This document shows positions 3,900 to 57,972 of a stretch of 64,000 nucleotides of DNA, piece by piece. The DNA is from an uncultured Clostridia bacterium (GTDB lineage Bacteria; Bacillota; Clostridia; TANB77; CAG-508): the NCBI GenBank assembly GCA_944391835.1, contig CALXVA010000001.1:3897-67896 (forward strand). Reading direction: 5' to 3'. The notes under the pieces are model-generated. The model did not search any database. It was not told the DNA's origin and saw only the letters and a list, made by a program, of their open reading frames with translations. Within the stretch, counting starts at the first letter, position 1; each line of letters begins with the position of its first letter. Made by a program: the position numbers and the translations under genes.

Positions 3900-3973
3900 A
3901 AGACCTCCATTTGAGCAGTTAAATGCTCTAATACGTTTTATATATCTTATGTAATTGCATTATTATTTGTTAC

Positions 3974-4217
3974 TAGAACATAAATTTTGTTAATTTCTTA
4001 TTACAAATTTAGCCGAGTAGGTATGTGTATTTTTTTATTTATATTTCCGTCCCCCAACTGCGTACAAACTGTATAAACAAAAACTAAAGTTTTGTTTAAC
4101 AGTTTGTAAACTTGTCGGTCCCCACCTTAAGACTTCAATATAAATAAAAAAATACACATACCTACTCGGTTTAAATATAAAGAAACTAAAGAAATTAACA
4201 AAATTTATGTTCTAGTC
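3974..4217. repeat. ~245-bp palindromic MITE-like element: ~75-bp inverted-repeat arms (3974-4048 vs 4139-4217) around a central imperfect palindrome
   Basis: left arm actagaacataaattttgttaatttctt...ccgagtaggtatgtgtatttttttatttatat is the reverse complement of the right arm atataaataaaaaaatacacatacctactcgg...aacaaaatttatgttctagt; the centre also has its own dyad caaactgtataaacaaaaac/gttttgtttaacagtttg. Confidence 0.75.
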
Positions 4218-4296
4218 ATAATCTACATGTAATAGCATAAGACCGTGTGGTGGAAGTGTTTTTCCTGCTTTTTTTCTATCTTTGCTTTCTATTATG

Positions 4297-7135: not shown

Positions 7136-8200
7136 TTACATTATTAAATTATCAAATACAAATTGTTCTTGCATTCTTTTTAAGGATTGCTTAATAGTCC
7201 TTGCTCTAATTTCTCCTATTCCATCTACTTCATCAAGTTTTGGAATATCTGCAACCAATATGTGTTGGAATGATTTAAAAGTTTTTACTAAGTTTTCCAC
7301 TATAGTGCTTGGCATTCTTGGTATTTTATTTAATATTCTATAACCTCTGGTGTATACACCAACTTCATCATAATTGTCAAAATCCTCATAACCTAATAAA
7401 TTAGCTATTTTATCTGGTTTTATAAGATTCTCATACACAATGTTTTTAAGTTCTAATAGAATTTTTTCTGCATTTCTTTTCTTACCAGGTGCAATATAGT
7501 CTTTAATAATCAAAAGTTCCTCTTTTTCTAAGTCTCCAACAGTTTCATCTAGTTGCATTTCTAATAATCTGCCCTCTTCGCCTAATTCATCTATCGCTCG
7601 TTCAACCTCAGTTGCAATTTTCATTACTAATTCAGCCCTTTGTATTACTGTAATTACATTTTCTAATGTTACAATATCATTAAATTCATATTCATTAAGT
7701 ATATTTATTTTATTATCAAATACTTTCTTATATTTTTCTACAATTTGTAAAGCTTGATTAGCTTTTGAAATAACATCTGCAGAATTTCTTAGCACATATC
7801 TTTCATTTCCTCTAAATAAAGTTATTATACCTCTTCTTTGCGATATACTTATTACTAGAGACCCCGTTTGTTTTGCTGTACGCTCTGCAGTTCTATGTCT
7901 CGTACCAGTTTCTGTTGTATAAATTTCAGGCGATGGTATTAATTGAGTATTCGCATACAAAATTTTCTTAAAATCAGAACTTAATATAATAGCCCCATCC
8001 ATTTTAGCGAGCTCATACAACTTAGCTGGGCTAAAATCTACGTCCAATTTAAAACCACCATCTACCAGCTTTAGAACTTCCTCATTATCTGCTATTGCTA
8101 TCAAAGCCCCTGTTTTGGCATTTAGAATATTCTCTAGTCCATTTCTAATTGGAGTACCAGGTGCTATTAGCTTTAAAACCTCTTCAATTCCTTCTGCCAC
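7136..8200 (-). CDS. disA: DNA integrity scanning protein DisA (DAC domain plus C-terminal HhH)
   Basis: IAPGTPIRNGLENIL...DGAIILSSDFKKILYANTQLIP...TGTRHRTAERTAKQTG is collinear with B. subtilis DisA; ORF-track start 8257 is a GTG reading through a REP element, and the likely true start is the GTG at 8200 after AAAGGAG. Confidence 0.85.
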   Translation of the reverse strand: MAEGIEEVLKLIAPGTPIRNGLENILNAKTGALIAIADNEEVLKLVDGGFKLDVDFSPAKLYELAKMDGAIILSSDFKKILYANTQLIPSPEIYTTETGTRHRTAERTAKQTGSLVISISQRRGIITLFRGNERYVLRNSADVISKANQALQIVEKYKKVFDNKINILNEYEFNDIVTLENVITVIQRAELVMKIATEVERAIDELGEEGRLLEMQLDETVGDLEKEELLIIKDYIAPGKKRNAEKILLELKNIVYENLIKPDKIANLLGYEDFDNYDEVGVYTRGYRILNKIPRMPSTIVENLVKTFKSFQHILVADIPKLDEVDGIGEIRARTIKQSLKRMQEQFVFDNLIM

Positions 8201-8227
8201 TGTAAATTTCACTCCTTTTGTCACCTT

Positions 8228-8270
8228 AGTGCCTGTCACAAAAGTGCCATTTGGCACTTTCAGGGACAGG
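8228..8270. repeat. REP-like element family 1 (nested hairpin CCTGTCAC / GTGCCATTTGGCAC / GGGACAGG)
   Basis: palindrome GTGCCATTTGGCAC flanked by CCTGTCAC and GGACAGG; same architecture at 9653, 10696 and 42004. Confidence 0.8.
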
Positions 8271-8271
8271 T

Positions 8272-9645
8272 TTACCTTAACTGCAATCCCTTTATTGCCT
8301 CATTTATATTTCTGACACCTATTATATCTAATTTATAATTTTCTTTCAAGAGTTTTTTGTTACTTTCTGGTATAATACATTTTTTAAATCCTAATTTTTC
8401 TGATTCCTTTATTCTTTTTTCTATCATATTTACTGCACGAACTTCTCCTGTTAGACCAACTTCACCTATTGCTACAACATCTTGTGGTATGCTAATATTC
8501 CTAAAGCTAGATGTACATGCTAATATAATGCCCAAGTCTACAGCAGGCTCTGCTAATTTTATTCCACTTACAACATTTAAATATACATCTTGTCCTCCTA
8601 AGTTTATGCCTGCCCTTTTTTCTACAACAGCAATTAGAACAGCTAATCTGTTAAAATCTATTCCATTTGCAGTTCTTTTTGGTATTCCAAATACACTTGG
8701 TGTAGTTAATGCCTGTAGTTCAACCAAAAGTGGTCTTGTTCCCTCCATACTAGCTACAATTACCGAGCCAGCAGGATTGTCGTTTCGCTCTGAAATAAGA
8801 ATTGATGATGGATTTGTAATTTCTACCATACCTTCATTTTTCATTTCAAACATTCCTACTTCATTTGTTGAGCCAAATCTATTTTTTACACTTCTTAATA
8901 TTCTGTATGAAAAATATCTTTCTCCCTCTAAGTATAGAACTGTATCTACCATGTGCTCCAATACTCTAGGTCCTGCTATATTTCCATCCTTTGTAACATG
9001 ACCGATTATTATTGTAGTAATTCCATTATCCTTGCACATTCTCATAATTCTTGAAGTAATTTCTCTAACCTGGCTAACAGTACCTGCAGCTGAAGTAATC
9101 TCTTCTGAATACATTGTTTGAATAGAATCTATAATAACAAGTTTCGGATTTACAGACATTATTGTTTCTTGAATATTATCAATATTTGTTTCACCTAAAA
9201 ATAATAAATCATCATTATTAATGTTCAGTCTATCAGCTCTAATCTTTACCTGTTCTGCCGATTCCTCTCCAGAAACGTATAAAACTTTTCCATCGCCTTT
9301 GACCTTATCGCAAAGTTGTAAAATTAAAGTAGACTTACCAATTCCAGGCTCTCCTCCTACTAGCACAAGTGAACCTTTAACCAAGCCTCCTCCCAAGACT
9401 CTATCTAACTCACCTATACCAGTGCTTGTCCTTGCCATTTCTATTCCTTCTACCTCTTTTAACTTACGAGGCATACTTCTCTCTTTGTTTGCACTACTCT
9501 TTCCCCCAGATGTACTTGAGGTATTTGCAACCTTTTCCTCATAAAAACTATTCCACTCATTACATGCTGGACACTTTCCTAGCCATTTTGCAGATTCATA
9601 TCCACAATTACTACACACAAAAATCGTTTTTGCTTTTGCCATCAT
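8272..9645 (-). CDS. radA: DNA repair protein RadA (Sms)
   Basis: zinc finger CSNCGYESAKWLGKCPAC, Walker A GGEPGIGKST, KNRFG motif, Lon-like C-terminus; true start probably MMAKAK after AAGGAGG (track start 9660 is a GTG). Confidence 0.9.
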   Translation of the reverse strand: MMAKAKTIFVCSNCGYESAKWLGKCPACNEWNSFYEEKVANTSSTSGGKSSANKERSMPRKLKEVEGIEMARTSTGIGELDRVLGGGLVKGSLVLVGGEPGIGKSTLILQLCDKVKGDGKVLYVSGEESAEQVKIRADRLNINNDDLLFLGETNIDNIQETIMSVNPKLVIIDSIQTMYSEEITSAAGTVSQVREITSRIMRMCKDNGITTIIIGHVTKDGNIAGPRVLEHMVDTVLYLEGERYFSYRILRSVKNRFGSTNEVGMFEMKNEGMVEITNPSSILISERNDNPAGSVIVASMEGTRPLLVELQALTTPSVFGIPKRTANGIDFNRLAVLIAVVEKRAGINLGGQDVYLNVVSGIKLAEPAVDLGIILACTSSFRNISIPQDVVAIGEVGLTGEVRAVNMIEKRIKESEKLGFKKCIIPESNKKLLKENYKLDIIGVRNINEAIKGLQLR

Positions 9646-9652
9646 TTCCTCC

Positions 9653-9706
9653 TTTGGCACTTAAGTGCCTGTCACCGAAGTGCCATTTGGCACTTTTGGG
9701 GACAGG
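9653..9706. repeat. REP-like element family 1 (with extra GGCAC-TTAA-GTGCC hairpin)
   Basis: tttGGCACttaaGTGCCTGTCACCgaaGTGCCATTTGGCACttttGGGGACAGG. Confidence 0.8.
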
Positions 9707-9712
9707 TTCACT

Positions 9713-10507
9713 TTATTTTTTATTGTTTTCTATTATCCTCATAATTGTTCTTTTACTAATTCCTAATAGCCTAACTATCTGCTCTGTCTGAATTCCTTCA
9801 ATTTGAGTTATTTTATAAATATATTTATTTCTAGTCTCTTTACTATATAATAAAATCTCTAGCAGATTCTCCACTCCGATAACTGTTTTTATATATTGTA
9901 TTGCATCTTCGTCACTCAATTCTCCCTCAGTTTCTAATTCTATTTTCAAGTATTCTTTATTATCAATCTCAGCATTATATTTTATAAACTGTTTTAATGC
10001 TTCTTCCTTAACGTCTCCAAATAGGCTAAGTATAAAATCCGTATCTGTTATGCCAAAATCTTTTTGTCCGATGTATTCTTGGTAACTACTCCATTCATAT
10101 ACATCTATGCTACTCATTTTTGCCTTACATGGATTATTATGTATATATCTTATTAAATTAAATAAGTATTTATCATCATTTACACTAATACTTCTATATC
10201 TATCTTGAAATAAATGTCCGACTCTATTATATTCCTTATTAAAATACTTAGCATATGAAGAACATAATTTATGCATTATTTTAGACATTCTATCATTTTC
10301 ATCATATATTACAAAGTGTACGTGATTAGTCATTAAAACAAAAAGATACACCCTAAAACTGTATTCTTCTTTTGTTTTCTTCAATAGATTTATAAATTTT
10401 TTTCTATCATTTTCGCATGTAAATATATCTTGCTTATTATTTCCTCTAATAATTATATGATATGTTTTAGTAATAGTTTTTAAATTTTCTCGTGCTATAC
10501 GGGGCAT
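9713..10507 (-). mobile_element. IS200/IS605-like Y1 (HuH) transposase with C-terminal DnaA-like HTH; RayT-like REP-associated tyrosine transposase candidate
   Basis: HuH motif LMTNHVHFVI and downstream conserved Tyr region (RYIHNNP); C-terminal HTH (LLGISKRTIMRIIENN); start MPRIAREN at 10507 after AAAGGAG; REP-like elements within ~200 bp on both sides. Confidence 0.7.
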
Positions 10508-10695
10508 TATTTTTTCTCCTTTCATTGTTTTTTATTAGTTTATTTTAGAATATTAAAATCACATTTAACCCCTATATCATATTTTTATTTGAACATAAGC
10601 CACATTAAAAATATAGCACATTTTTTATAAATATGCTATATTTTTCACTAAATATTTACAATTTATTATGTTATCTATACTGTCTAATTGCTCAA

Positions 10696-10746
10696 CCTGT
10701 CCCTAAAGGTGCCAAATGGCACTTTGGTGACAGGCACTAAAGTGCC
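10696..10746. repeat. REP-like element family 1 (inverted orientation relative to 9653 copy)
   Basis: CCTGTCCCtaaagGTGCCAAATGGCACtttgGTGACAGGCACtaaaGTGCC. Confidence 0.8.
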
Positions 10747-12674
10747 AAAATGAACATTGCGTGTGACCATGCAAGACCTATTACCCAATTTGGTTGCATT
10801 GTGTGGTTGTCTATTTGTTCTCCTAAAAATCCATGCTTATTACTGCTATTTATTATAAAATCTATACATTCTTGTGCTTTTTTCTTTTCACCTATTTCTT
10901 TGTAGTACATTGCCATCCATAATGTTGAAATTGCCCAAGGGCTATTTCCTCCTCTATAGTGGTCTCCTTCAAATCTTAGATAGCCTCCTGTGTATGTTCT
11001 AAGTCTCATGTTTATTTTTTCTATTGTGTTGGTTATTTTCTTTTCGTTTGGTTTGTACATTTTAAATGGTACTACTGTTCCTAATACGCTTATGTCTGTT
11101 ACTTCGTCGTTTGTGTTTCTTTTTAATGTTTTTGTGTTTTCGTTATACATATTCGCTTTTATGTATTTGTCCATTTCTTTTTTATAAAAGTCTATCTTTT
11201 TACTTAATTTATTTATGCTTTCTAGTTTTAATCTATTTTTTTCTTCGTATTCTGGTTTTAGAATTTCATACATTTCTAGAATTGCATTAAATGCTGAGTA
11301 GATGCTTGCAAGTGAATATAAATGTACTCCTTCATGCATCTCCCACAAATCATAGCTTACTGGTAGCTTGTTTCTTTCTTCTGTGTGATATGTTTTTTCT
11401 ATTTCATTTTTTACTATATCGCTATCATCATGTAATCCTAAAATGTTGTCCATATATATGCACAAGAATTTTACTGCGCTCTCACACATTTTTAGCATAT
11501 CTTTTAAGAATTTTTTGTCCTTTGTAACTTTATAATGTTCATATGCACCATATACTACTCCTGCTGTTTCGTCTATTTGATATCCCCAGCAAGGTGCTAA
11601 ACGTCCGTCTGTGTAGAATCTTTGTTCCCACATTCCATTTCTGCTTTGTGTGTTTTTGCAAAATACTTTGTAGAATCTTTCTGTTTCTTTATTCATTTTT
11701 AACTTATCGAATGCTCTTGTTATAAATACTGCATCACGTGGCCAACAATATCCATATCTACCACATTGGGTTAGATTTTCATCTACTTCTACTGCTGCTG
11801 CAACTCCTCCTGTTTCTTTGTTTGTTAGCAGTGGAAATAGCAATATGCTCCTTTTATATACCTTATTAAATTTTTTATTATACTCACTATTTTCTTCTTT
11901 TAGTTCTATATTGATATGTTCTTTTACATATTTTTTCCAATATTTTTGTACTGAACTTTGTTCTGCTTCTACGTCTTGCTTTCTAATATTTTCTATGTTC
12001 TTCCACATTTCCTCTGCATTAACTTTATCGTTTTCTAGAATGTATAAATATATAACAAGTTCTTTAGTTTCACCTGGTTTGATAACTCCAAGTTCATAAT
12101 TTATGCTAGAGTCTGAACTCATACCTATATAGTCTTTATCATGTATTACACCACTTTCTATGTTATTGTCTGTATCGTTTAACTGATGTGCATTTATATT
12201 CTTTTTAGAAAACATACACAATGTGTTATTATGACTATATTGCATTAACACATTGTTTTCTATTTTCGAGCCTACCATATTGTTTGGATTTGATAATAGT
12301 TTTGAGTGTACTAAAAAGTTTACATTCAAATCTATTGAGTTGTTATTTTTGAATATATATCTTTTTATCAAAACACTATTTTTCATAGATACAAAATCTA
12401 TTTGCTTAATTTGCAAATTAAAATATGTGTTTTCTATTTCGGTGTTTAATATATTTGTATCTTCTGTATAATACTGATTGTATCTATTGTTTTGGTCTTG
12501 ATGTAAATAAATTATGCAAGAGTCATTTATTTTGACTCCTGTATGAAAAAAATCTAAAAATTGTTTAAAGTCTGGTGTATTGTACATTAACCTTAGCATT
12601 TCACCATGATATGTGAAGCTTGCAGTTATATCTTTTCCTCCAATTATTGCATCATTAAAATACTTGTTTTTCAT
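10737..12674 (-). CDS. glycoside hydrolase family 15 (glucoamylase/glucodextranase-like) protein
   Basis: GH15 hallmarks GYCWPRDAVFITRAF and catalytic-region SYDLWEMHEG; likely start MKNKYF at 12674 after AGGAGAG; the last codons (ILAL*) are read from the REP element. Confidence 0.65.
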   Translation of the reverse strand: MKNKYFNDAIIGGKDITASFTYHGEMLRLMYNTPDFKQFLDFFHTGVKINDSCIIYLHQDQNNRYNQYYTEDTNILNTEIENTYFNLQIKQIDFVSMKNSVLIKRYIFKNNNSIDLNVNFLVHSKLLSNPNNMVGSKIENNVLMQYSHNNTLCMFSKKNINAHQLNDTDNNIESGVIHDKDYIGMSSDSSINYELGVIKPGETKELVIYLYILENDKVNAEEMWKNIENIRKQDVEAEQSSVQKYWKKYVKEHINIELKEENSEYNKKFNKVYKRSILLFPLLTNKETGGVAAAVEVDENLTQCGRYGYCWPRDAVFITRAFDKLKMNKETERFYKVFCKNTQSRNGMWEQRFYTDGRLAPCWGYQIDETAGVVYGAYEHYKVTKDKKFLKDMLKMCESAVKFLCIYMDNILGLHDDSDIVKNEIEKTYHTEERNKLPVSYDLWEMHEGVHLYSLASIYSAFNAILEMYEILKPEYEEKNRLKLESINKLSKKIDFYKKEMDKYIKANMYNENTKTLKRNTNDEVTDISVLGTVVPFKMYKPNEKKITNTIEKINMRLRTYTGGYLRFEGDHYRGGNSPWAISTLWMAMYYKEIGEKKKAQECIDFIINSSNKHGFLGEQIDNHTMQPNWVIGLAWSHAMFILAL

Positions 12675-18534: not shown

Positions 18535-18737
18535 TATATAGTTCCTAGGCAGTATGTATATTTATCAAATTTTTTTGTTCCTTGGTGTCGCAACCATTTT
18601 ATAATAAAAAGAAAATAAATTTTTCTTTTTATTATAAAATGGTTGCTCCAAATCGCACTCGCTTCAGAGAAGCTCGTTTGGTCGCTTACGCGTCACTACA
18701 AAAATTCTCTAAATATACATACTACCTAGGATAAAAG
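18535..18737. repeat. compound palindromic element: outer 24-bp inverted repeats (TCCTAGGcAGTATGTATATTTA) enclosing a perfect 26-bp-arm AT hairpin (18590-18646) and a GC-rich block
   Basis: 18590-18646 gcaaccattttataataaaaagaaaa-taaat-ttttctttttattataaaatggttgc; outer IR 18542-18565 vs 18710-18733. Confidence 0.7.
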
Positions 18738-18743
18738 TAAAAA

Positions 18744-18776
18744 CGTGGACAAAAAGGAGTGTCCCCTTTGTCCACG
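18744..18776. repeat. REP-like element family 2 (GTGGACAAA..GGAGTGTCCCC..TTTGTCCAC hairpin)
   Basis: cGTGGACAAAAAGGAGTGTCCCCTTTGTCCACg; other copies at 27328, 32119, 32194, 35998, 36076. Confidence 0.8.
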
Positions 18777-27327: not shown

Positions 27328-27358
27328 GTGTGTGGACAAAAGGGTCACTCCAATTTGT
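27328..27358. repeat. REP-like element family 2 abutting the tRNA 5' end
   Basis: GTGGACAAAAGGGTCACTCCAATTTGTCCAC. Confidence 0.75.
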
Positions 27359-27420
27359 CCACAAAATTTTTTTTAAATGATTTCTAAAGTCTGTGCATAT
27401 TCGAAGACGAAATGCCTTTC

Positions 27421-28975
<1,555 letters not shown>

Positions 28976-28980
<5 letters not shown>

Positions 28981-32118: not shown

Positions 32119-32225
32119 CGTGGACAAAGGGGACTACTGCCTTTTGTCCACGCTTTAATACCATTATATTATTTATATAAATTTTCTATCTTTGTGGACA
32201 AATAGGAGTGTCCCCTTTGTCCACG
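32119..32225. repeat. pair of REP-like family 2 hairpins (32119-32152 and 32194-32225) in the tpiA-pgk junction
   Basis: cGTGGACAAAGGGGACTACTGCCTTTTGTCCACg and GTGGACAAATAGGAGTGTCCCCTTTGTCCACg, opposite loop orientations, separated by an AT-rich ~40 bp. Confidence 0.8.
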
Positions 32226-33502: not shown

Positions 33503-33528
33503 TAATAATCATCCTTTCTATATTTATA

Positions 33529-33716
33529 GAGGCTAGGATAATATTTAAAATATTCGAGAATATGGAATGGAATGTGATTTGAACATACTAATTCTTAAGA
33601 AATTTTTGTAGGGAATCTCGAATTTTTTGAGGGCGCTGCAAAAATTTCGTTAGAATTAGTGTAAAAATCAGCTTGACCGACATATTCGAAAATATTTTTA
33701 ATATTATTCTAGCCTC
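33529..33716. repeat. MITE-like element with ~35-bp terminal inverted repeats between pgk and gap
   Basis: left gaggctaggataatatttaaaatattcgagaatat vs right atattcgaaaatatttttaatattattctagcctc; internal ctcgaattttttgagggcgctgcaaaaatttcg hairpin resembles the family 3 core. Confidence 0.7.
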
Positions 33717-33747
33717 TACTTTATTCCAAACAAAATTACTACAATCT

Positions 33748-35997: not shown

Positions 35998-36107
35998 TGT
36001 GGACAAGAGGGACACTCCTTTTTATCCACACTTTAAATTTTTACATGATTTACTATTTATGATAGTGTAGTGACTGTGGGCAAGAAGGAGTGTCCCTCTT
36101 GTCCACG
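35998..36107. repeat. pair of REP-like family 2 hairpins (35998-36030 and 36076-36107)
   Basis: GTGGACAAGAGGGACACTCCTTTTTATCCAC and GTGGGCAAGAAGGAGTGTCCCTCTTGTCCAC with complementary loops. Confidence 0.75.
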
Positions 36108-38924: not shown

Positions 38925-41413
38925 TTACATATTCATCATCTTAAATGCTAATCCTGTATTTCTTTTTTTGTTATCATTATTATTTATCATAAAGTCTATT
39001 ATGTTTTTACTGCCTATAATAATTAGTAATTTCTTTGCTCTAGTCATACCAGTATAAAGTAAATTTCTTGTAAGTAGCATTGGTGCAGTTTGTGAAATAG
39101 GCATTATTACTACATCAAATTCACTTCCGTTGTGCTTTATGAACAGTAATAGCGTATGCATGCTCTATTTGTTCTAACTCACTATATTGATACCATACCT
39201 GTTTATCATCATCAAATTTAATTTTAACTTGCTTATTAAAGTCATCTATTTTTTCTATCGTTCCAAATTCACCGTTGAACACGCCACTTCCACTTTCAAA
39301 AAGCGGTTCTTTACGCTCCCAATATATATCGTAATTGTTTTTAACTTGCATTATTCTATCGCCTTCTCTAAAAAGGCTATCTCCAAATTTTTTCTCTTTT
39401 TTAGATTCTGATAGCGGATTTACAGTACCTTGTAATAATTTATTTAATTCTTTTGTTCCTAAATCGCCTTTTTTAGTTGGAGTTATAATTTGTATATTCT
39501 TAAAGAAATCATAATCGCCATAGTTTTTTAGCCTTTCTCCACTTAAAGATAAAACATTATATAAAATTTTGTCTTTTTGAGTTTCATTTACAAAAAAGAA
39601 ATCTTCAAGAAATAAATTATTCTTTATATTTTCACTATCTTCTTGTCTCTTTTTACTTGTGCTTTCTGTATTTTTTAGGTTATTTACAGTAATACTTTTA
39701 TCAATAATTTCTGGTAATGTATTATCTAAATTTTCTTCATTATTACTATTTTCTATCTCTTCTTTTGTTATAAATCCTTTTCCCTCATTTACTCTATGTG
39801 CGTTTACTATAATTTTGCTTTTAGCAGCTTGTCTAAATATTTTGTTTAACCTAATTGTAGTTATCTTTTCAGATTCAATAATATCTTTTAGAACATTCCC
39901 TGGACCAACTGATGGTAGCTGATCAATATCACCTACTAAAACTAGTTTAGTTCCTTTGTATAAAGCTTTACACAAATAATTCATCAAAAACAAATCTACC
40001 ATCGACATTTCATCTACAATTACTATGTCTCCATCAATAGGTGCAACTGAAATATCTGAATTTATTCCCTGTGTTTCATCCGAAATCTTTCCTATTTCTA
40101 GCAATCTATGTAAAGTACTTGCCTCGTTTCCAGTTGCTTCTGTCATCTTCTTAGCAGCTCTTCCCGTTGGAGCACAAAGTACAGGCTTCATTTCACTATG
40201 CTTAAATATATCTATTATAGTTTTTATTATTGTAGTTTTACCAGTACCAGGTCCGTCCAGTTATAACACAAACATTATTATCATTTATTGCACTTATCGC
40301 TTCTATTTGTTTTTCAGATAGTTCTATGCTAGACTTTTTTTCGAATAATTCTAGTTCTTTATCAAATCTGTCTATTTTTTTTATATTTTTATATTTATCT
40401 AATTCAATTAAACGTCTTGCTACATTTGCTTCTGCCTCATAGTATTGATATAAATATACCCATTCCTCTCCATCTCTTTCTTCAAGTACAATGTCTTCTT
40501 TTGCTTTTAAATTGATAATAGAATCCTCTATATCATTCTCGCTAACCCCAAGTAACTTTTTAACAAATTCAACTAACCCTTCATATCTAGTACAACAATG
40601 ACCATTATATGTCATAAGAATTAAAGCATGTTTAATCCCACTTCTAATTCTTTTTTCATTATTATATTCGAACCCTAAATTAAGAGCCATCTTATCAATT
40701 TGCTCAAAATTAACTTTATTTACCAAATCAACTAAAATATATGGATTACTTTCTATCTCTTCCATTGCATTTACTCCAAGTGCCTTATAAATCTTCTCTG
40801 CATTTTGTGGTCCTATTCCAAACTTGTCTAAAAAACCGACAAGTTGCCAAACTTCCCAGTTTTCTATAAATGTATTTGCTATTTCTATTGCTCTATCTTT
40901 TGTTATCCCCTTAATTTGTGCTAACTTAGCTGGCTCAAACTTAAACACATTTAAAGTATCCTCTCCAAAAGTTTCAACAATATTTCTTGCAGTTGCAGGT
41001 CCAATACCTTTAATTCCACAATTTGCTAGGTAACGTTCTAGCGCCTTTGTAGTTTGAGGCATCATTTTCTCAAAAGTATCTACCTTAAATTGTAGACCAT
41101 ACTCTTGGTGTTCTACAAATTTTCCCATAGCTTTAAGAGTATCTCCAATATTTACAAATGGTAGATACCCTACTATAGTCATTTCTTCGTCCAGATCATC
41201 TATTTCATTAAACTCTTCAGTAATTCCAATTTGATCAGCCATTTCTTTTTTATTTTTTTTAATTATATCTTTATCTAATTTTAGAACAGCTATACAGTAG
41301 CTATTCAAATCATTTTTGTAAATTATTTCAATAACTTCACCTTGTAATTCCAATGTGTATACCTTCTTTTTTGTCATGTTTGGGGACAGGCTCTTTTGCG
41401 ACAAGCTTGTCAT
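38925..41413 (-). pseudogene. recD2: RecD2-like ATP-dependent DNA helicase interrupted by two +1 frameshifts (three ORF pieces)
   Basis: pieces 40238-41413 (HhH N-domain, ends VITGRTWYW*), 39121-40191 (KPVLCAPTGRAAKKM ... AYAITVHKAQRK*) and 38925-39161 (GSEFDVVIMP ... YTGMTRAKK); the shifted frame restores GPGTGKTT and HKAQGSEFD; both lesions are an extra C before GGA. Confidence 0.75.
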
Positions 41414-41426
41414 GTTTGGGGACAGG
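41385..41426. repeat. degenerate REP-like family 1 remnant (duplicated CATGTTTGGGGACAGG)
   Basis: catgtttggggacaggctcttttgcgacaagcttgtcatgtttggggacagg. Confidence 0.5.
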
Positions 41427-41494
41427 TCTGTATTTCTAGCCTGAGCCTATCATTCTGTACGAATTATATCATAATATAAAATCATTTACAATGT

Positions 41495-41851: not shown

Positions 41852-42003
41852 TATATTACCTCCAACTTATATTTGTTATATGATTTATTTAATTTACTAC
41901 AATCAAATGATTATTGGTTATAATATAATATGTATTACTGTTAATTTTAGTTAATCGTATATTAAATACTTTCCTCTCGAAAAGCAACACTATTTTCCTT
42001 AGA

Positions 42004-42054
42004 CCTGTCACCAGAAGTGCCAAATGGCACTTTTGTGACAGGCACCTGAGTGCC
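42004..42054. repeat. REP-like element family 1
   Basis: CCTGTCACCagaaGTGCCAAATGGCACttttGTGACAGGCACctgaGTGCC. Confidence 0.8.
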
Positions 42055-42109
42055 AAAAAAAGAAGCAACGTAATTGTTGCCCCCTAAATTTCATTCATCT
42101 TTTTTTATT

Positions 42110-42634
42110 TTAAACTAATTGTAATATAACTACTTCTGCTGCGTCTCCTCTTCTTTGTCCAAGTTTTAGGATTCTTGTGTATCCTCCAACTCTTCCTTCA
42201 TATTTTGGTGCTATTTCGTTGAATAGTTTTGCAGTTAAGTCTATATTCTTTCCATCTTCATCTTTTACTTTGTTTAATGTTTTCATCATTTTTCTTCTTG
42301 CATTTAATCTTGATGGCATATCTTTTTGTCTTTTTTCAGTAGTTTCTTCTCTAACTACTCTTAGATATTCTTTACCGTTCTTGCTTTTTACAAGCTCTGT
42401 TACTTTATTTCCCTTAGCATCTAATTTTGCTTTTGAAACTTTTACATCAACTGTTTCAAAATTATCTTTTTCTTTCATTGCTAATGAAATTAAGCTATCA
42501 GCTATTGCTTTTACTTCTTTAGCTCTAGCTTCTGTTGTTTCTATTTTTCCGTGTAGAATTAAATCAGTAGTTAGAGTTTTAAGCATAGCTAATCTAATGT
42601 CAGTTGTTTTACCTAATTTTCTATTAGTTGCCAC
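42110..42634 (-). CDS. rplQ: 50S ribosomal protein L17 with ~55-aa internal insertion
   Basis: N-terminus [36 protein letters not shown] and C-terminus [18 protein letters not shown] match L17, separated by an extra Lys/Glu-rich segment; total 174 aa where ~120 is typical. Confidence 0.85.
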
Positions 42635-44929: not shown

Positions 44930-45180
44930 TGCTTTCATAATTCGAATTAGAAGCGCATCGCTTATAATCAGAATTTCAAAACAAATCAAAAACTATTTTA
45001 TTCTTTCATTTGCTTTCATAATTCGAATTAGAAGCGCATCGCTATAATCAGAATTTCAAAACAAATCAAAAGCAAGTAGTGCTAGGAAAGCTAGCTAAAA
45101 TTTTTGAGATTATACGTATTGTATATCGAAAAAATTTTATGCGACGCTTGACAACGCAATACGAAGCTTTTCATTTGTTT
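44930..45180. repeat. MITE-like family 3 copy (45068-45180) preceded by a tandem duplication of a ~63-bp unit carrying empty TIR pairs (44936-45066)
   Basis: caaaacaaatcaaaagcaagtagtgctaggaaagctagct...ttgacaacgcaatacgaagcttttcatttgttttg with TIR caaaacaaat[c/g]aaaag; upstream ttcgaattagaagcgcatcgct(t)ataatcagaatttcaaaacaaatcaaaaactattttattctttcatttgctttcataa twice. Confidence 0.8.
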
Positions 45181-45182
45181 TG

Positions 45183-50730: not shown

Positions 50731-50785
50731 TTTAAAATCTCCTTTCTAACTAAAAGATTTTGCTCTTAGTTTATTTTAGATTATA

Positions 50786-50906
50786 TGTTTAAGTCAAAAG
50801 CGAGTATTGCTAGGCGAACGAATAAAAATTTTTGAGATTGTACGGGGTGTACATCGAAAAAATTTTTATGAAGTTCAACAACGCAAGACGAAGCTTTTCA
50901 TTTAAA
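50786..50906. repeat. MITE-like family 3 copy (rplR-rplF spacer)
   Basis: gtcaaaagcgagtattgctaggcgaacgaataaaaatttttgagattgtacggggtgtacatcgaaaaaatttttatgaagttcaacaacgcaagacgaagcttttcattt. Confidence 0.85.
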
Positions 50907-50909
50907 CAA

Positions 50910-52280: not shown

Positions 52281-52351
52281 TTTATTCTCCTTTCCCCAAT
52301 TTTTATATAAAATATTATTTCATTTTTATTTATTTTCTATTGATTGTAAAA

Positions 52352-52472
52352 TTAATCAAAAGCGAGTATTGCTAGGAAAGCTAGCAAAAAAGTTTGAAAT
52401 AATACTTTGTGTATATTGAGAACTTTTTTGCGACGCTTAGGCACGCTAAGTACGAAACTTTTCATTAATTTT
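52352..52472. repeat. MITE-like family 3 copy (rpsN-rplE spacer) with gctag-gaaa-gctagc sub-hairpin
   Basis: aattaatcaaaagcgagtattgctaggaaagctagcaaaaaagtttgaaataatactttgtgtatattgagaacttttttgcgacgcttaggcacgctaagtacgaaacttttcattaatt. Confidence 0.85.
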
Positions 52473-53435: not shown

Positions 53436-53702
53436 TTTTACTCTTGTCTTAAAACGAATTTAGAACGAGTAATGCTAGGCAATTAAAATTTAAAATACCG
53501 GAGGCGTACTTTTTTCCACGCCAAAGAATTTTTAAATTTTAATAACAATTCTTTATTACTGTTATAAATCATTTTATTTAGTAGTCTTTCAAAGAAACAA
53601 GTAGTGCTAGGAAAAATTAATTTCAAAACCGGAGGTGTGCTTTTTGCTACACACGAGGATTTTGGGATTAATTTTGACAACGCAAGACGCCGTTTATTTT
53701 TA
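53436..53702. repeat. two tandem divergent family 3-related elements (about 53440-53560 and 53578-53700) filling a 354-bp rplX-rplN spacer
   Basis: both carry agta(a/g)tgctagg and ccggagg(c/t)gt...loops; the second ends in ttgacaacgcaagacgccgttt like canonical copies; the spurious ORF 53483-53725 lies across them. Confidence 0.7.
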
Positions 53703-57237: not shown

Positions 57238-57624
57238 TCGAATTTATGAAAAACTTCGTCTTACGTTGTCAATCTTCGCAAATGTTTCCTCGATATACAC
57301 TCGTATTATCTCGTCAACATTATACTCGATTTCCTAGTAATACTCGTTTTTGCTAAATTCTCTACTCTACTTTCTTAATAAATTTACGGATTTTTTCCTG
57401 CTCCGTATTGCAGATAAAATTTATTTTCCGGGTTATTTCCCGATAGTTTTTTACAATTATAAAACGGATTTAAATCACGCCGTCTTTTAACTCCACTTTC
57501 CTAAGACAAATCAAAAATGGTAGATTGCTAGGAAAACAAGTAAAAATTTTTGAGATAGTACTTTGTGTACATCGAAAAAATTTTTATGAAGTTTGACAAC
57601 GCAAGATGCCGTTTTTCATTTGTC
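57238..57624. repeat. 400-bp rplW-rplB spacer holding two family 3 elements in opposite orientation (57238-57353 inverted; 57505-57624 direct) around a further hairpin segment
   Basis: 57238 tcgaatttatgaaaaacttcgtcttacgttgtcaatcttcgc...tcctagtaatactcgtttttg is the reverse complement of the family consensus; 57505 ctaagacaaatcaaaaatggtagattgctaggaaaacaagtaaaaatttttgagatagtactttgtgtacatcgaaaaaatttttatgaagtttgacaacgcaagatgccgtttttcatttgtcttaag with 17-bp TIR. Confidence 0.85.
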
Positions 57625-57972
57625 TTAAGCTCCCATAAATTCATCAATAGAATCTTTATACTTCTTACTTAATTTAACTTCTTTTCCACCTTTAGCAAGG
57701 TAAGATTTTTCTGAAGCATTTGTATCTATTGTAACGATTGCTTTTTTCCAGTCAGATGTTTTTCCAACATTTCTTCCAACTCTTTTTTCTTTTCCTTTAA
57801 CCATTACTGTATTAACATTTAATACCTTAACTTCAAATAATTTTTCTACAGCATTTTTTATGTCTATTTTTGTAGCTTTTTTATTTACTTTAAAAGTGTA
57901 CTTTCCTTCTTGTATTCCATCGCTACTTTTTTCAGTAACAACTGGAGCTATTATTATATCTTCTGCCACCAT
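57625..57972 (-). CDS. rplW: 50S ribosomal protein L23 (with ~20-aa C-terminal extension)
   Basis: [24 protein letters not shown]; 115 aa against the usual ~95. Confidence 0.9.

What the first reader, a model, noticed from the sequence alone, without database searches (positions are those of the whole stretch)
8228..10746. REP-like nested-hairpin repeats clustered around an IS200/RayT-like Y1 transposase (candidate REPtron) in a Firmicute
A ~50-bp element is built as CCTGTCAC(C) - GTGCCA(A/T)(A/T)TGGCAC - (G)GTGACAGG, often with an extra GGCAC-NNNN-GTGCC hairpin. It occurs at 8228, 9653, 10696 and 42004, with a degenerate copy at 41385. Three of these lie within ~250 bp of a single-copy HuH Y1 transposase (9713-10507) that has a C-terminal HTH and no recognisable IS ends. 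This is the REP/RayT arrangement, in which a domesticated tyrosine transposase is associated with its cognate hairpin repeats. That system is described mainly in Proteobacteria, so a Clostridia-like instance with a different repeat sequence would be notable.
Basis: partly seen in the sequence, partly recalled or inferred. Interest (0 to 1): 0.7.

Follow-up and report, generated by a model that had tools for sequence, protein, structure and literature searches.

The report
Domesticated transposase with dispersed hairpin repeats
A single-copy, vertically inherited relative of the REP-associated tyrosine transposases sits next to the DNA-repair gene radA in an uncultured gut Clostridia bacterium. 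It is bracketed by inverted copies of a 56-base hairpin repeat that is also scattered tens of times around the genome. This is a clear new example of an already described type of system, not a new kind.

Summary
Four full copies of a ~56-nt nested-hairpin element lie at 8217, 9653, 10694 and 42003, with a partial array at 41372-41428. Its 14-nt core occurs 4 times against 0.02 expected by chance.

Two copies form 93%-complementary inverted repeats around a 264-aa HUH/Y1 gene (9713-10507). That protein is closer to REP-associated tyrosine transposases than to IS200 transposases: NCBIfam 64 against 23 bits, and the best structural match is 4ER8. It also has a C-terminal helix-turn-helix region.

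- **Not an insertion sequence.** Every contig with this exact protein shows the same GH15-Y1-radA-disA neighbourhood. Orthologues down to about 45% identity sit at the same locus. dN/dS is 0.14-0.26.
- **Repeats track the gene.** Each lineage has its own flanking inverted repeats: a lineage-specific perfect hairpin followed by a conserved TTT-GGGACA motif. Copies also occur at other intergenic sites.
- **Dispersed.** Related genome bins carry 6-19 exact-core copies.

This matches the published TIRYT/"TIRtron" class (TnpA_REP subclass 2.1, RAYT Group 1). That class has the GGGGWSAS repeat motif and has already been reported in Clostridia. The element has no GTAG tag, so it is not a classical REP.

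Verdict: a new member of a known kind. One unexplained extra: one end of the element almost always abuts a ribosome-binding site or a stop codon.

The parts
9713..10507 (-). Single-copy HUH/Y1 gene (264 aa; an upstream in-frame ATG at 10525 would give 270 aa). RAYT-like catalytic core (residues ~15-145) plus a helical C-terminal HTH region (~199-263).
   Evidence: Pfam Y1_Tnp 59.7 bits and HTH_23 19 bits. NCBIfam REP_Tyr_transpos 64.5 bits against IS200 23 bits. AF2 pLDDT 87, best PDB fold match 4ER8 TnpA_REP. Invariant Y121/N125/P126, H62/H64 conserved in at least 90% of 25 homologues. dN/dS 0.14-0.26.
9653..9708 (+). Downstream inverted repeat of the Y1 gene (full element). The GGGGACAGG end lies 5 nt from the Y1 stop codon. 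The TTTGGCAC end directly abuts the radA Shine-Dalgarno sequence (CCTCC at 9648-9652 on the + strand).
   Evidence: I3, D9; z -4.8.
10694..10750 (-). Upstream inverted repeat of the Y1 gene (full element), 187 nt before the ATG. The GH15 ORF ends inside it: its TAG stop codon (10737-10739) sits in the loop GGCAC-TTTAG-TGCC.
   Evidence: (I3, 93% complementary to 9653-9708).
10607..10663 (-). Conserved promoter-like block TTGTAAATATTTAGTG followed by the palindrome AAAAATATAGCA-N14-TGCTATATTTTT, between the upstream repeat and the Y1 start. Candidate promoter or operator (inferred).
   Evidence: Aligned in 7 of 9 lineages, including ones with only 43-50% protein identity.
8217..8272 (+). Full element filling the whole radA-disA spacer. 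It overlaps the radA stop codon by 1 nt at one end and lies 1 nt from the disA SD (GGAG) at the other. Its 5' small hairpin is degenerate (GTCAC in place of GGCAC).
   Evidence: D9, I1; z -4.2. An element occupies the same position in L007 and L058.
42003..42058 (-). Dispersed full element 31 kb from the Y1 gene, immediately after the terminator-like hairpin and T-run downstream of the ORF at 42110-42634.
   Evidence: D10; z -5.1. An orthologous copy is present in L056.
41372..41428 (+). Partial array without the central GTGCCA/TGGCAC hairpin: two TGTTTGGGGACAGG modules separated by a small GCGACAAGCTTGTC hairpin. The same module arrangement extends many full copies in relatives.
   Evidence: (right flanks).

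Best explanation
This is a 'TIRtron'. It is a chromosomally fixed, domesticated HUH/Y1 enzyme of the TnpA_REP (RAYT) lineage that carries a C-terminal HTH (the TIRYT / subclass 2.1 / RAYT Group 1 type). It is bracketed by two inverted copies of its cognate DNA element.

The element has three parts: a lineage-specific perfect 6-8-bp hairpin, a short T-rich spacer, and a conserved GGGAC(A) motif (the published GGGGWSAS motif). In this lineage it has two additions: an outer stem (CCTGTCAC / GKGACAGG) and a small 5' hairpin (GGCAC-N4-5-GTGCC).

By analogy with E. coli TnpA_REP and IS608/ISDra2 TnpA, the enzyme most likely binds the folded hairpin on single-stranded DNA, for example at the replication fork. 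It would read the adjacent GGGAC motif and use Tyr121 with the HUH metal site to cut and rejoin the strand. Over evolutionary time this would copy or homogenise the element at other intergenic sites, giving tens of copies per ~1.5-Mb genome.

Shown here: the anatomy, single-copy status, synteny, purifying selection, dispersal, the coordinated change of repeats with the gene's own flanks, and compensatory hairpin changes between lineages. Inferred: binding, cleavage and mobilisation by this protein, and which strand is active.
For: **Protein**
- Y1_Tnp fold with HUH and Y-x3-NP.
- Scores better against the RAYT model than the IS200 model in all 25 homologues scanned.
- The only PDB profile hit (E = 0.016) and the best fold hit (E = 7.7e-6, TM 0.70) are both 4ER8, TnpA_REP bound to a REP hairpin.
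- HTH_23 or HTH_28 matches in the C-terminus of 5 and 2 of 25 homologues, as described for subclass 2.1.2 (PMC6006769).

**Domestication**
- The 6 places shown from the 21 contigs read for the exact protein all have the GH15-Y1-radA-disA neighbourhood.
- Orthologues at 72, 60, 52, 46 and 45% identity sit directly upstream of radA-disA. A 43% one keeps the GH15 neighbour.
- dN/dS is 0.14-0.26.
- Plasmid and phage collections hold only homologues of 37% identity or less.

**Cognate repeats**
- Every lineage has 38-71-nt inverted repeats around the gene.
- Five lineages have five different perfect central palindromes, each 2-5 nt before a conserved (T)nGGGACA. The palindromes are GTGCCA/TGGCAC, TTGCTCC/GGAGCAA, CCGACAT/ATGTCGG, AGGGGCA/TGCCCCT and TGCGACA/TGTCGCA.
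- GGGGACAG at 9698 fits GGGG[AT][CG]A[CG] (PMC3733652).

**Dispersal and enrichment**
- 19, 16 and 6 exact-core copies occur in three related species-level genome bins. Three of the four window copies lie within 2.6 kb of the gene.

**Coordinated change**
- Copies within a genome are 84-93% identical to each other, against 81-86% for copies at the same position in the sister species.
- The G-to-T change GGCAC to GTCAC is present in both arms of all three L007 copies.
- In L065 the Y1 flanks and the copy after disA switched hairpin type together. The copy after mreB kept the type seen in L062.
Against: - No activity has been shown for any subclass 2.1/TIRYT enzyme. Quentin et al. 2018 found no REP-like structures near these genes and left the role of the HTH open.
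- Copy number is modest (tens). Many copies lie at orthologous sites in three species, so recent transposition is not demonstrated. Homogenisation by gene conversion would give the same pattern.
- In the L007 lineage the central hairpin is disrupted in all copies (fold z -0.7). That is awkward if the hairpin is essential.
- The protein is below NCBIfam's curated RAYT cutoff (64.5 against 80 bits), and there is no GTAG tag.
- About three quarters of copies have the TGGCAC end within a few nt of an SD or a stop codon. This hints at selection for a host function, or at target choice that the simple model does not predict.
- Orientation relative to the flanking genes is not clearly biased (20 to 11).
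Confidence: 0.6

Rival explanations
1. It is an ordinary autonomous insertion sequence (IS200/IS605-like, or an IS bounded by inverted repeats), and the dispersed copies are its MITEs. The locus would be just one recent insertion.
For: The gene plus its 56-nt, 93%-complementary inverted repeats (9653-10750, 1.1 kb) looks formally like a small IS. Pfam names the domain 'Transposase IS200 like'.
Against: - One Y1 gene in 64 kb.
- The exact protein is always in one neighbourhood.
- Orthologues down to ~45% identity sit at the same locus.
- The IS200 model scores 23 bits against a cutoff of 55.
- There is no tnpB partner; the neighbours are GH15 and radA.
- No close homologues occur on plasmids or phages.
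Confidence: 0.03
2. The repeats are host cis-elements, such as mRNA 5'/3' stem-loops, translation modulators, terminator helpers or nucleoid-protein sites. They would be spread and kept by selection or by another mechanism, and their presence around the Y1 gene would be incidental.
For: - About 75-80% of copies have one fixed end 0-6 nt upstream of an SD, or overlapping or abutting a stop codon.
- Copies are conserved at orthologous sites in three species while the flanks diverge.
- Palindromic elements would fold in the transcript in either orientation.
- From my own knowledge (Liang, Rudd and Deutscher, Mol Cell 2015; not in the held library): E. coli REPs within about 15 nt of stop codons modulate translation.
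Against: - In eight Y1 lineages examined the gene is bracketed by an inverted pair of that lineage's own element type.
- The dispersed copies switch type together with those flanks.
- No Rfam family matches.
- This reading is not exclusive: classical REPs are both RAYT-linked and used by the host.
Confidence: 0.12
3. The Y1-HTH protein no longer moves DNA. It would be a sequence- and structure-specific DNA-binding or nicking factor working with the adjacent recombination/repair genes radA-disA, or an autoregulated regulator. The repeats would be its binding sites.
For: - Linkage to radA-disA persists over deep divergence.
- A conserved C-terminal HTH is present, and a conserved palindrome lies in the gene's own upstream region.
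- Copies lie in front of radA, disA and an addA/UvrD-like helicase gene.
- Copy number is low and positions are old.
Against: - The catalytic His and Tyr residues are conserved in all or nearly all homologues, which argues for retained nuclease/ligase chemistry.
- The other genes next to copies are unrelated housekeeping genes (by their N-terminal sequences: era, trpS, rpe, rimO and others), so no coherent regulon appears.
- Coordinated replacement of hairpin type at dispersed sites needs some DNA transaction.
Confidence: 0.15

Closest known systems
TIRtron / TIRYT (Di Nocera, De Gregorio and Rocco 2013, PMC3733652). Quentin et al. 2018 (PMC6006769) tentatively equate it with their TnpA_REP subclass 2.1, to which 291 of 292 RAYT Group 1 sequences (Bertels et al. 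2017, PMC5581495) are assigned.
   Same: - RAYT-like Y1 core with Y-x3-NP and a C-terminal HTH (HTH_23/HTH_28 type).
- The gene is bracketed by long inverted repeats carrying GGGG[AT][CG]A[CG].
- The repeats are partly self-complementary and form a moderately abundant dispersed family. Group 1 flanking 16-mers average ~12 copies per replicon; here the count is 6-19.
- Group 1 has been reported in Clostridia.
   Different: - Here the central hairpin is shown to change by compensatory substitutions between lineages while the GGGACA motif stays constant.
- The locus is fixed next to radA across a whole clade. By contrast, horizontal transfer was suggested for Group 1 / subclass 2.1.
- This lineage added an outer stem and a small 5' hairpin.
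- One end of the element hugs gene boundaries.
- Placement in a tree with the published reference sequences was not done.
E. coli REPtron: TnpA_REP (RAYT Group 2 / subclass 2.2) with REP/BIME sequences (Ton-Hoang 2012, PMC3333891; Messing 2012, PDB 4ER8; Corneloup 2021, PMC8266576)
   Same: - Single-copy domesticated Y1 gene flanked by inverted cognate palindromes that are dispersed in intergenic DNA.
- It is the best structural relative.
- The recognition logic is a hairpin plus a conserved adjacent motif.
- The enzyme and its repeats co-evolve.
   Different: - No GTAG tag; the conserved motif is GGGAC(A), 3' of the hairpin on the strand as written.
- The protein has an extra ~120-aa HTH-bearing C-terminal region.
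- Tens of copies, not hundreds.
- Sequence similarity to 4ER8 is marginal (E = 0.016 with a profile, 16% identity).
REPIN-RAYT systems of Pseudomonas and enterobacteria (Bertels and Rainey 2011, PMC3116915)
   Same: - A vertically inherited single-copy RAYT.
- Its flanking repeats form a within-genome population that evolves together with the gene.
   Different: - REPINs are doublets of two short inverted REPs, present in hundreds of copies.
- Here the unit is a single ~56-nt nested palindrome, sometimes extended by GGGACAGG modules, in tens of copies.
- The RAYT group is different.
IS200/IS605 transposases (IS608, ISDra2)
   Same: - HUH/Y1 fold (ranks 2-26).
- Presumed chemistry on single-stranded hairpins.
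   Different: - Not multi-copy.
- Symmetric inverted ends instead of asymmetric left and right ends.
- No tnpB partner.
- The IS200 model score is far below its cutoff.

Membership tests
TnpA_REP / RAYT (class 2 Y1 HUH enzymes) | HUH motif and the Y-x3-NP catalytic tyrosine motif | tested here: met
   H62-V-H64 and Y121-I-H-N-N125-P126. Y121, N125 and P126 are invariant, and H62/H64 are conserved in at least 90% of 25 homologues. The Y---NP signature of class 2 is described in PMC6006769.
TnpA_REP / RAYT (class 2 Y1 HUH enzymes) | Scores above the curated family threshold (NCBIfam NF047646, REP-associated tyrosine transposase) | tested here: not met
   64.5 bits against a cutoff of 80. It is still the best family, well ahead of IS200 (23 bits against a cutoff of 55).
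TnpA_REP / RAYT (class 2 Y1 HUH enzymes) | Fold closest to the solved TnpA_REP | tested here: met
   AF2 model pLDDT 87. Foldseek top hit 4er8_A, E = 7.7e-6, TM(target) 0.70, ahead of ISDra2 and IS608. It is also the only PDB profile hit.
TnpA_REP / RAYT (class 2 Y1 HUH enzymes) | Single copy and vertically inherited (not IS-like) | tested here: met
   One copy in the window. One neighbourhood for the exact protein. The same locus in orthologues down to ~45% identity. The whole-genome copy number for the window's own species could not be counted.
Classical REP / REPtron (GTAG-type) | GTAG (or CGTC) tetranucleotide at one foot of the palindrome | tested here: not met
   No GTAG or CGTC at either foot in any of the 43 distinct copies listed. 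The conserved flank is (T)nGGGACA.
Classical REP / REPtron (GTAG-type) | Gene flanked by inverted copies of a palindrome that is dispersed in intergenic DNA | tested here: met
   Arms 9653-9708 and 10694-10749 are 93% complementary. Related genome bins hold 6-19 exact-core copies each. Copies are intergenic or overlap gene ends by at most 16 nt.
TIRYT / TIRtron = subclass 2.1 / RAYT Group 1 | Long terminal inverted repeats bracketing the gene | tested here: met
   56 nt here, and 38-71 nt in six other lineages.
TIRYT / TIRtron = subclass 2.1 / RAYT Group 1 | GGGG[AT][CG]A[CG] motif in the inverted repeats | tested here: met
   GGGGACAG at 9698-9705. The upstream copy has AGGGACAG (7 of 8). Other lineages have GGGGACGG, GGGGACAC or GGGACA.
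TIRYT / TIRtron = subclass 2.1 / RAYT Group 1 | C-terminal HTH domain (Bac_DnaA_C, HTH_23 or HTH_28) | tested here: inconclusive
   HTH_23 at 19.2 bits, below the 24.6 cutoff, over residues 237-261. HTH_23 matches 5 of 25 homologues and HTH_28 matches 2 of 25, at E of 0.01 or better. AF2 predicts a confident all-helical C-terminal region.
TIRYT / TIRtron = subclass 2.1 / RAYT Group 1 | Clusters with the published subclass 2.1 / Group 1 reference sequences in a tree | not tested
IS200/IS605 insertion sequences | Multiple near-identical copies, asymmetric left/right subterminal hairpins, often a tnpB partner, and an IS200 model score above its cutoff | tested here: not met
   Single copy. Symmetric inverted ends. 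Neighbours are GH15 and radA. NF033573 scores 23 bits against a cutoff of 55.
Any of the above | The enzyme binds and cleaves or rejoins its cognate single-stranded hairpin | not testable with these tools
   This needs purified protein and oligonucleotide assays.

The most novel reading that the evidence does not exclude
The Y1-HTH enzyme and its hairpin/GGGAC elements could be a host-integrated system rather than a fading selfish one. It has been locked next to radA-disA throughout a clade of small-genome Clostridia. It would install and keep homogeneous a structured element exactly at gene boundaries, 0-6 nt upstream of Shine-Dalgarno sites or across stop codons, where the element tunes translation or mRNA stability. 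That would give subclass 2.1 TnpA_REP proteins, whose function is unknown, a concrete substrate (hairpin plus TTT-GGGACA) and a cellular role.
Probability: 0.12. Interest if true: 0.7.

Novelty: new member of a known kind. Interest (0 to 1): 0.35.

Why it matters
The biochemical function of HTH-bearing RAYT relatives (TIRYT / subclass 2.1) is unknown. The 2018 phylogenomic survey reports them in 14.9% of the strains it sampled and found no hairpin substrates next to them.

This clade offers an unusually clean natural experiment:
- one gene at one fixed locus;
- short cognate repeats whose hairpin changes by compensatory substitutions while a GGGACA motif stays constant;
- dispersed copies that switch type together with the gene's own flanks.

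That directly nominates the substrate for in vitro work. It also adds a Clostridia example of long-term, vertically inherited transposase-repeat coexistence. It does not change the known picture of how such systems are built.

Tried and rejected
- **Rfam.** The whole window at gathering thresholds, and 8100-10900 at E up to 5, gave no family for the element and only one tRNA.
- **PDB by single sequence.** Only chance hits. A profile was needed.
- **GTAG/CGTC tag.** Absent.
- **Covariation within the window-type family.** Uninformative. The collection pattern fixed the inner stem, and the other stems show only single-sided changes. MAFFT put two lineages one column out of register, so hairpins were scored directly instead.
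- **Orientation bias relative to flanking genes.** 20 to 11, not convincing. Replication direction is unknown for these contigs.
- **Precise insertion target.** The bases 5' of TGGCAC are only T/A-rich (TT or AA). The spacing to CCTCC varies from 0 to 15 nt, so no defined target sequence emerged.
- **Outward promoter in the element.** None seen by eye.
- **Cassette replacement of Y1.** Y1 in the BRZ_GQ__bin4 bin is only 60% identical although radA is 98% identical. I considered replacement of the Y1 cassette. However, dS varies from 0.18 (radA) to 0.76 (disA) to 1.09 (Y1) across the region, so mosaic recombination of the neighbourhood explains it as well.
- **Six pattern hits in Xanthobacter, Proteobacteria and Chloroflexota.** They share only the inner palindrome and were set aside as unrelated.
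- **Whole-genome copy count for the window's own species.** Not possible. No genome bin in the collection is the same species; the best matches are 90-92% nucleotide identity.
Full report
**1. Observation**

The region was read directly. The element has this layout: TTTGGCAC-N4-GTGCC | TGTCAC-N4-GTGCCA-TT-TGGCAC-N5-6-G(G/T)GACAGGT.

- Full copies lie at 8217-8272 and 9653-9708 (written strand +), and at 10694-10750 and 42003-42058 (written strand -).
- The site at 41372-41428 is a partial array. It has two TGTTTGGGGACAGG modules around a small GCGACAAGCTTGTC hairpin and lacks the central palindrome.
- The 14-nt core occurs 4 times against 0.02 expected. CCTGTCMC occurs 11 times against 0.83 expected.
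- As single-stranded DNA the copies fold into the nested hairpin with z-scores from -2.5 to -5.1.
- A profile search found no further copies in the window.

**2. The gene**

The ORF at 9713-10507 (-) encodes 264 aa.

- Pfam Y1_Tnp scores 59.7 bits. A weak HTH_23 match lies at residues 237-261.
- NCBIfam ranks the REP-associated tyrosine transposase model first, at 64.5 bits against a curated cutoff of 80. IS200 scores only 23 bits against a cutoff of 55. The same order holds for all 25 homologues scanned.
- An alignment of 25 homologues shows H62-x-H64 conserved in at least 90% of them, invariant Y121-x3-N125-P126, and a conserved WSSY motif.
- An AlphaFold model (pLDDT 87) has the Y1 core followed by a helical C-terminal region.
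- Its best match among solved structures is 4ER8, E. coli TnpA_REP bound to a REP hairpin, ahead of ISDra2 and IS608 transposases. 4ER8 is also the only PDB hit of the family profile.
- It is the only Y1 gene in the window.

**3. Not an insertion sequence**

- The exact protein was found on many metagenomic contigs. The index lists it in 100 blocks, and 21 contigs were read. All 6 places shown carry GH15-Y1-radA-disA-PPIase.
- Orthologues at 72% (L007), 60% (L039), 52% (L058), 46% (L062, L065, L067) and 45% (L069) identity all sit directly upstream of radA-disA. A 43% orthologue (L070) keeps the GH15 neighbour.
- dN/dS is 0.14-0.26, against 0.02-0.04 for radA and disA. The gene is therefore under purifying selection, though looser than for the housekeeping neighbours.
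- Plasmid and phage collections hold only distant homologues, at 37% identity or less.

**4. The repeats belong to the gene**

The two copies next to the gene are 56-nt inverted repeats, 93% complementary. Their GGGGACAGG ends face the gene and their TTTGGCAC ends face outward.

All of the other lineages with a complete locus have their own inverted pair of 38-71 nt. In L039 the upstream copy is rearranged.

Laid side by side, most share one plan: [GGGAC(G/A)G] - spacer - central palindrome - T-rich spacer - GGGACA.

The central palindrome differs in each lineage and is perfect in at least one flank of each:

| Lineage | Central palindrome |
|---|---|
| window | GTGCCA / TGGCAC |
| L062 | TTGCTCC / GGAGCAA |
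| L065 | CCGACAT / ATGTCGG |
| L067 | AGGGGCA / TGCCCCT |
| L069 | TGCGACA / TGTCGCA |

In every case it lies 2-5 nt before a conserved (T)nGGGACA. This is the pattern expected for a hairpin read by shape with an adjacent motif read by sequence.

**5. Dispersal**

- A scan of one genome per species with the window-type core found 19, 16 and 6 copies in three 'uncultured Clostridia bacterium' genome bins, and one copy in Candidatus Neoclostridium roslinense. Six further hits were unrelated.
- From the contig lengths listed, I estimate these bins at roughly 1.5 Mb. That is about one copy per 80-90 kb, against three copies within 2.6 kb at the Y1 locus.
- Other lineages also carry their own element type at further intergenic sites, for example after mreB and after disA in L062, L065 and L069, and as an inverted pair in L070.

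**6. Coordinated change**

- Copies within the window are 84-93% identical to each other. They are only 81-86% identical to the copies at the same three positions in the sister species L007.
- L007 carries GTCAC in place of GGCAC in both hairpin arms of all three of its copies.
- L065 has a new hairpin type in both Y1 flanks and in the copy after disA. Its copy after mreB keeps the type seen at all these sites in L062.
- So some process spreads changes between the Y1 flanks and the distant copies. It could be mobilisation and replacement, or gene conversion.

**7. Placement relative to genes (observed, not explained)**

- The TTTGGCAC end is almost always at a gene boundary. In 17 of the 45 copies in the three bins plus the window, it lies 0-6 nt upstream of the GGAGG of a gene reading away from it. 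At least three more are the same but were cut off by a locus end.
- In 15 of the 45, a gene reads into the element and stops at or inside it. Often the stop is a TAG in the loop GGCAC-TTTAG-TGCC, as for the GH15 gene here.
- The other end of the element lies at variable distances from the next gene.
- The genes next to copies are unrelated housekeeping genes. Named from their N-terminal sequences only, they include radA, disA, an addA/UvrD-like helicase, era, trpS, rpe and rimO.
- No defined target sequence was found 5' of the element.

**8. Comparison with what is known**

- Di Nocera et al. 2013 described RAYT-like genes flanked by long inverted repeats, which they named TIRtrons and TIRYTs. 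Many of those repeats share GGGGWSAS, some are self-complementary, and some form moderately abundant families (PMC3733652).
- Quentin et al. 2018 placed 20 of those 26 proteins in TnpA_REP subclass 2.1. This subclass is defined by a C-terminal HTH of the Bac_DnaA_C, HTH_23 or HTH_28 type. They reported no REP-like structures near these genes and left the function open (PMC6006769).
[quoted passage not shown] 2017 to subclass 2.1. Bertels et al. report Group 1 in 21 bacterial classes including Clostridia, with flanking 16-mers at about 12 copies per replicon (PMC5581495).
- The window locus meets the features of this class that could be tested: inverted repeats, GGGGACAG, an HTH-type C-terminus and moderate copy number.
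- It fails the GTAG criterion of classical REPs.
- Mechanistic inference rests on E. coli TnpA_REP, which cleaves and rejoins single-stranded REPs in vitro (PMC3333891, PMC8266576).

**9. Verdict**

The system belongs to an already described class that is already known in Clostridia, so the novelty claim is too strong. Four things add something:

- cross-lineage compensatory evidence for a hairpin-plus-GGGACA substrate in this class;
- deep fixation next to radA;
- the coordinated switch of repeat type;
- the hugging of gene boundaries.

These make it a good model system, not a new kind of system.

Noticed in passing
window 18745-18775, 27332-27362, 32120-32151, 32194-32224, 35999-36029, 36076-36106: A second intergenic palindromic repeat family of ~31 nt, GTGGACAAA-(loop)-TTTGTCCAC. 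In four copies the loop contains GGGGACAC or GGGACAC, the first of which fits the GGGGWSAS motif, in either orientation. Six more copies occur in the loci fetched from related genome bins. It may be a second substrate or relic of the same Y1 system, or an unrelated terminator-like repeat.
   Followed up: partly
window 10607-10663: A promoter-like block (TTGTAAATATTTAGTG) and the palindrome AAAAATATAGCA-N14-TGCTATATTTTT lie upstream of the Y1 gene. Both are conserved in lineages whose Y1 proteins are only 43-50% identical, which is better conservation than the inverted repeats themselves show. It is a candidate autoregulatory operator for the C-terminal HTH.
   Followed up: partly
window 28848-28976, 45053-45181, 50781-50908, 52343-52428, 53667-53695, 57499-57626: A family of 86-98-nt direct repeats (63-86% identical) containing TTGCTAGGAAAGCTAGC and TTGACAACGCAAGA, spread over the half of the window that holds the ribosomal-protein gene cluster. 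Its nature is not determined.
   Followed up: no
window 3967-4221, 18543-18731, 33527-33718: Three long intergenic inverted-repeat structures (arms of 32-59 nt, 75-95% complementary, spanning 190-255 nt). Two share a GTATGT(G/A)TAT-like core. They may be another MITE-like family.
   Followed up: no
window 10737-10752 (and L007 9778-9800): The GH15 glycoside-hydrolase ORF runs 15 nt into the upstream inverted repeat and ends at a TAG in the loop of its small hairpin. The same is true in the sister species. The element therefore supplies the last codons and the stop codon of a conserved gene.
   Followed up: yes
L039 3966-7410 compared with window 7136-10507: Synonymous divergence between the window and the BRZ_GQ__bin4 bin is strongly mosaic: dS is 0.18 in radA, 0.76 in disA and 1.09 in Y1. 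Y1 is only 60% identical in protein although radA is 98.5% identical. This suggests recombination within the locus, or fast evolution of Y1.
   Followed up: partly
L029, L035, L040, L045, L052 (Xanthobacter and Proteobacteria genome bins): A conserved ~60-nt sequence, GCAGTGCCGCATGTCACGATAGTGCCATTTGGCACTATTGCCGGAG, recurs in several Xanthobacter genomes. It shares only the inner GTGCCATTTGGCAC palindrome with the Clostridia element and is unrelated to this finding.
   Followed up: no
L002 and L004, 15776-20795: In some strains of the window species a prophage-like block replaces the truA-side neighbourhood about 5 kb downstream of disA. The block has an integrase, an S24 repressor and an SMC-like gene.
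   Followed up: no
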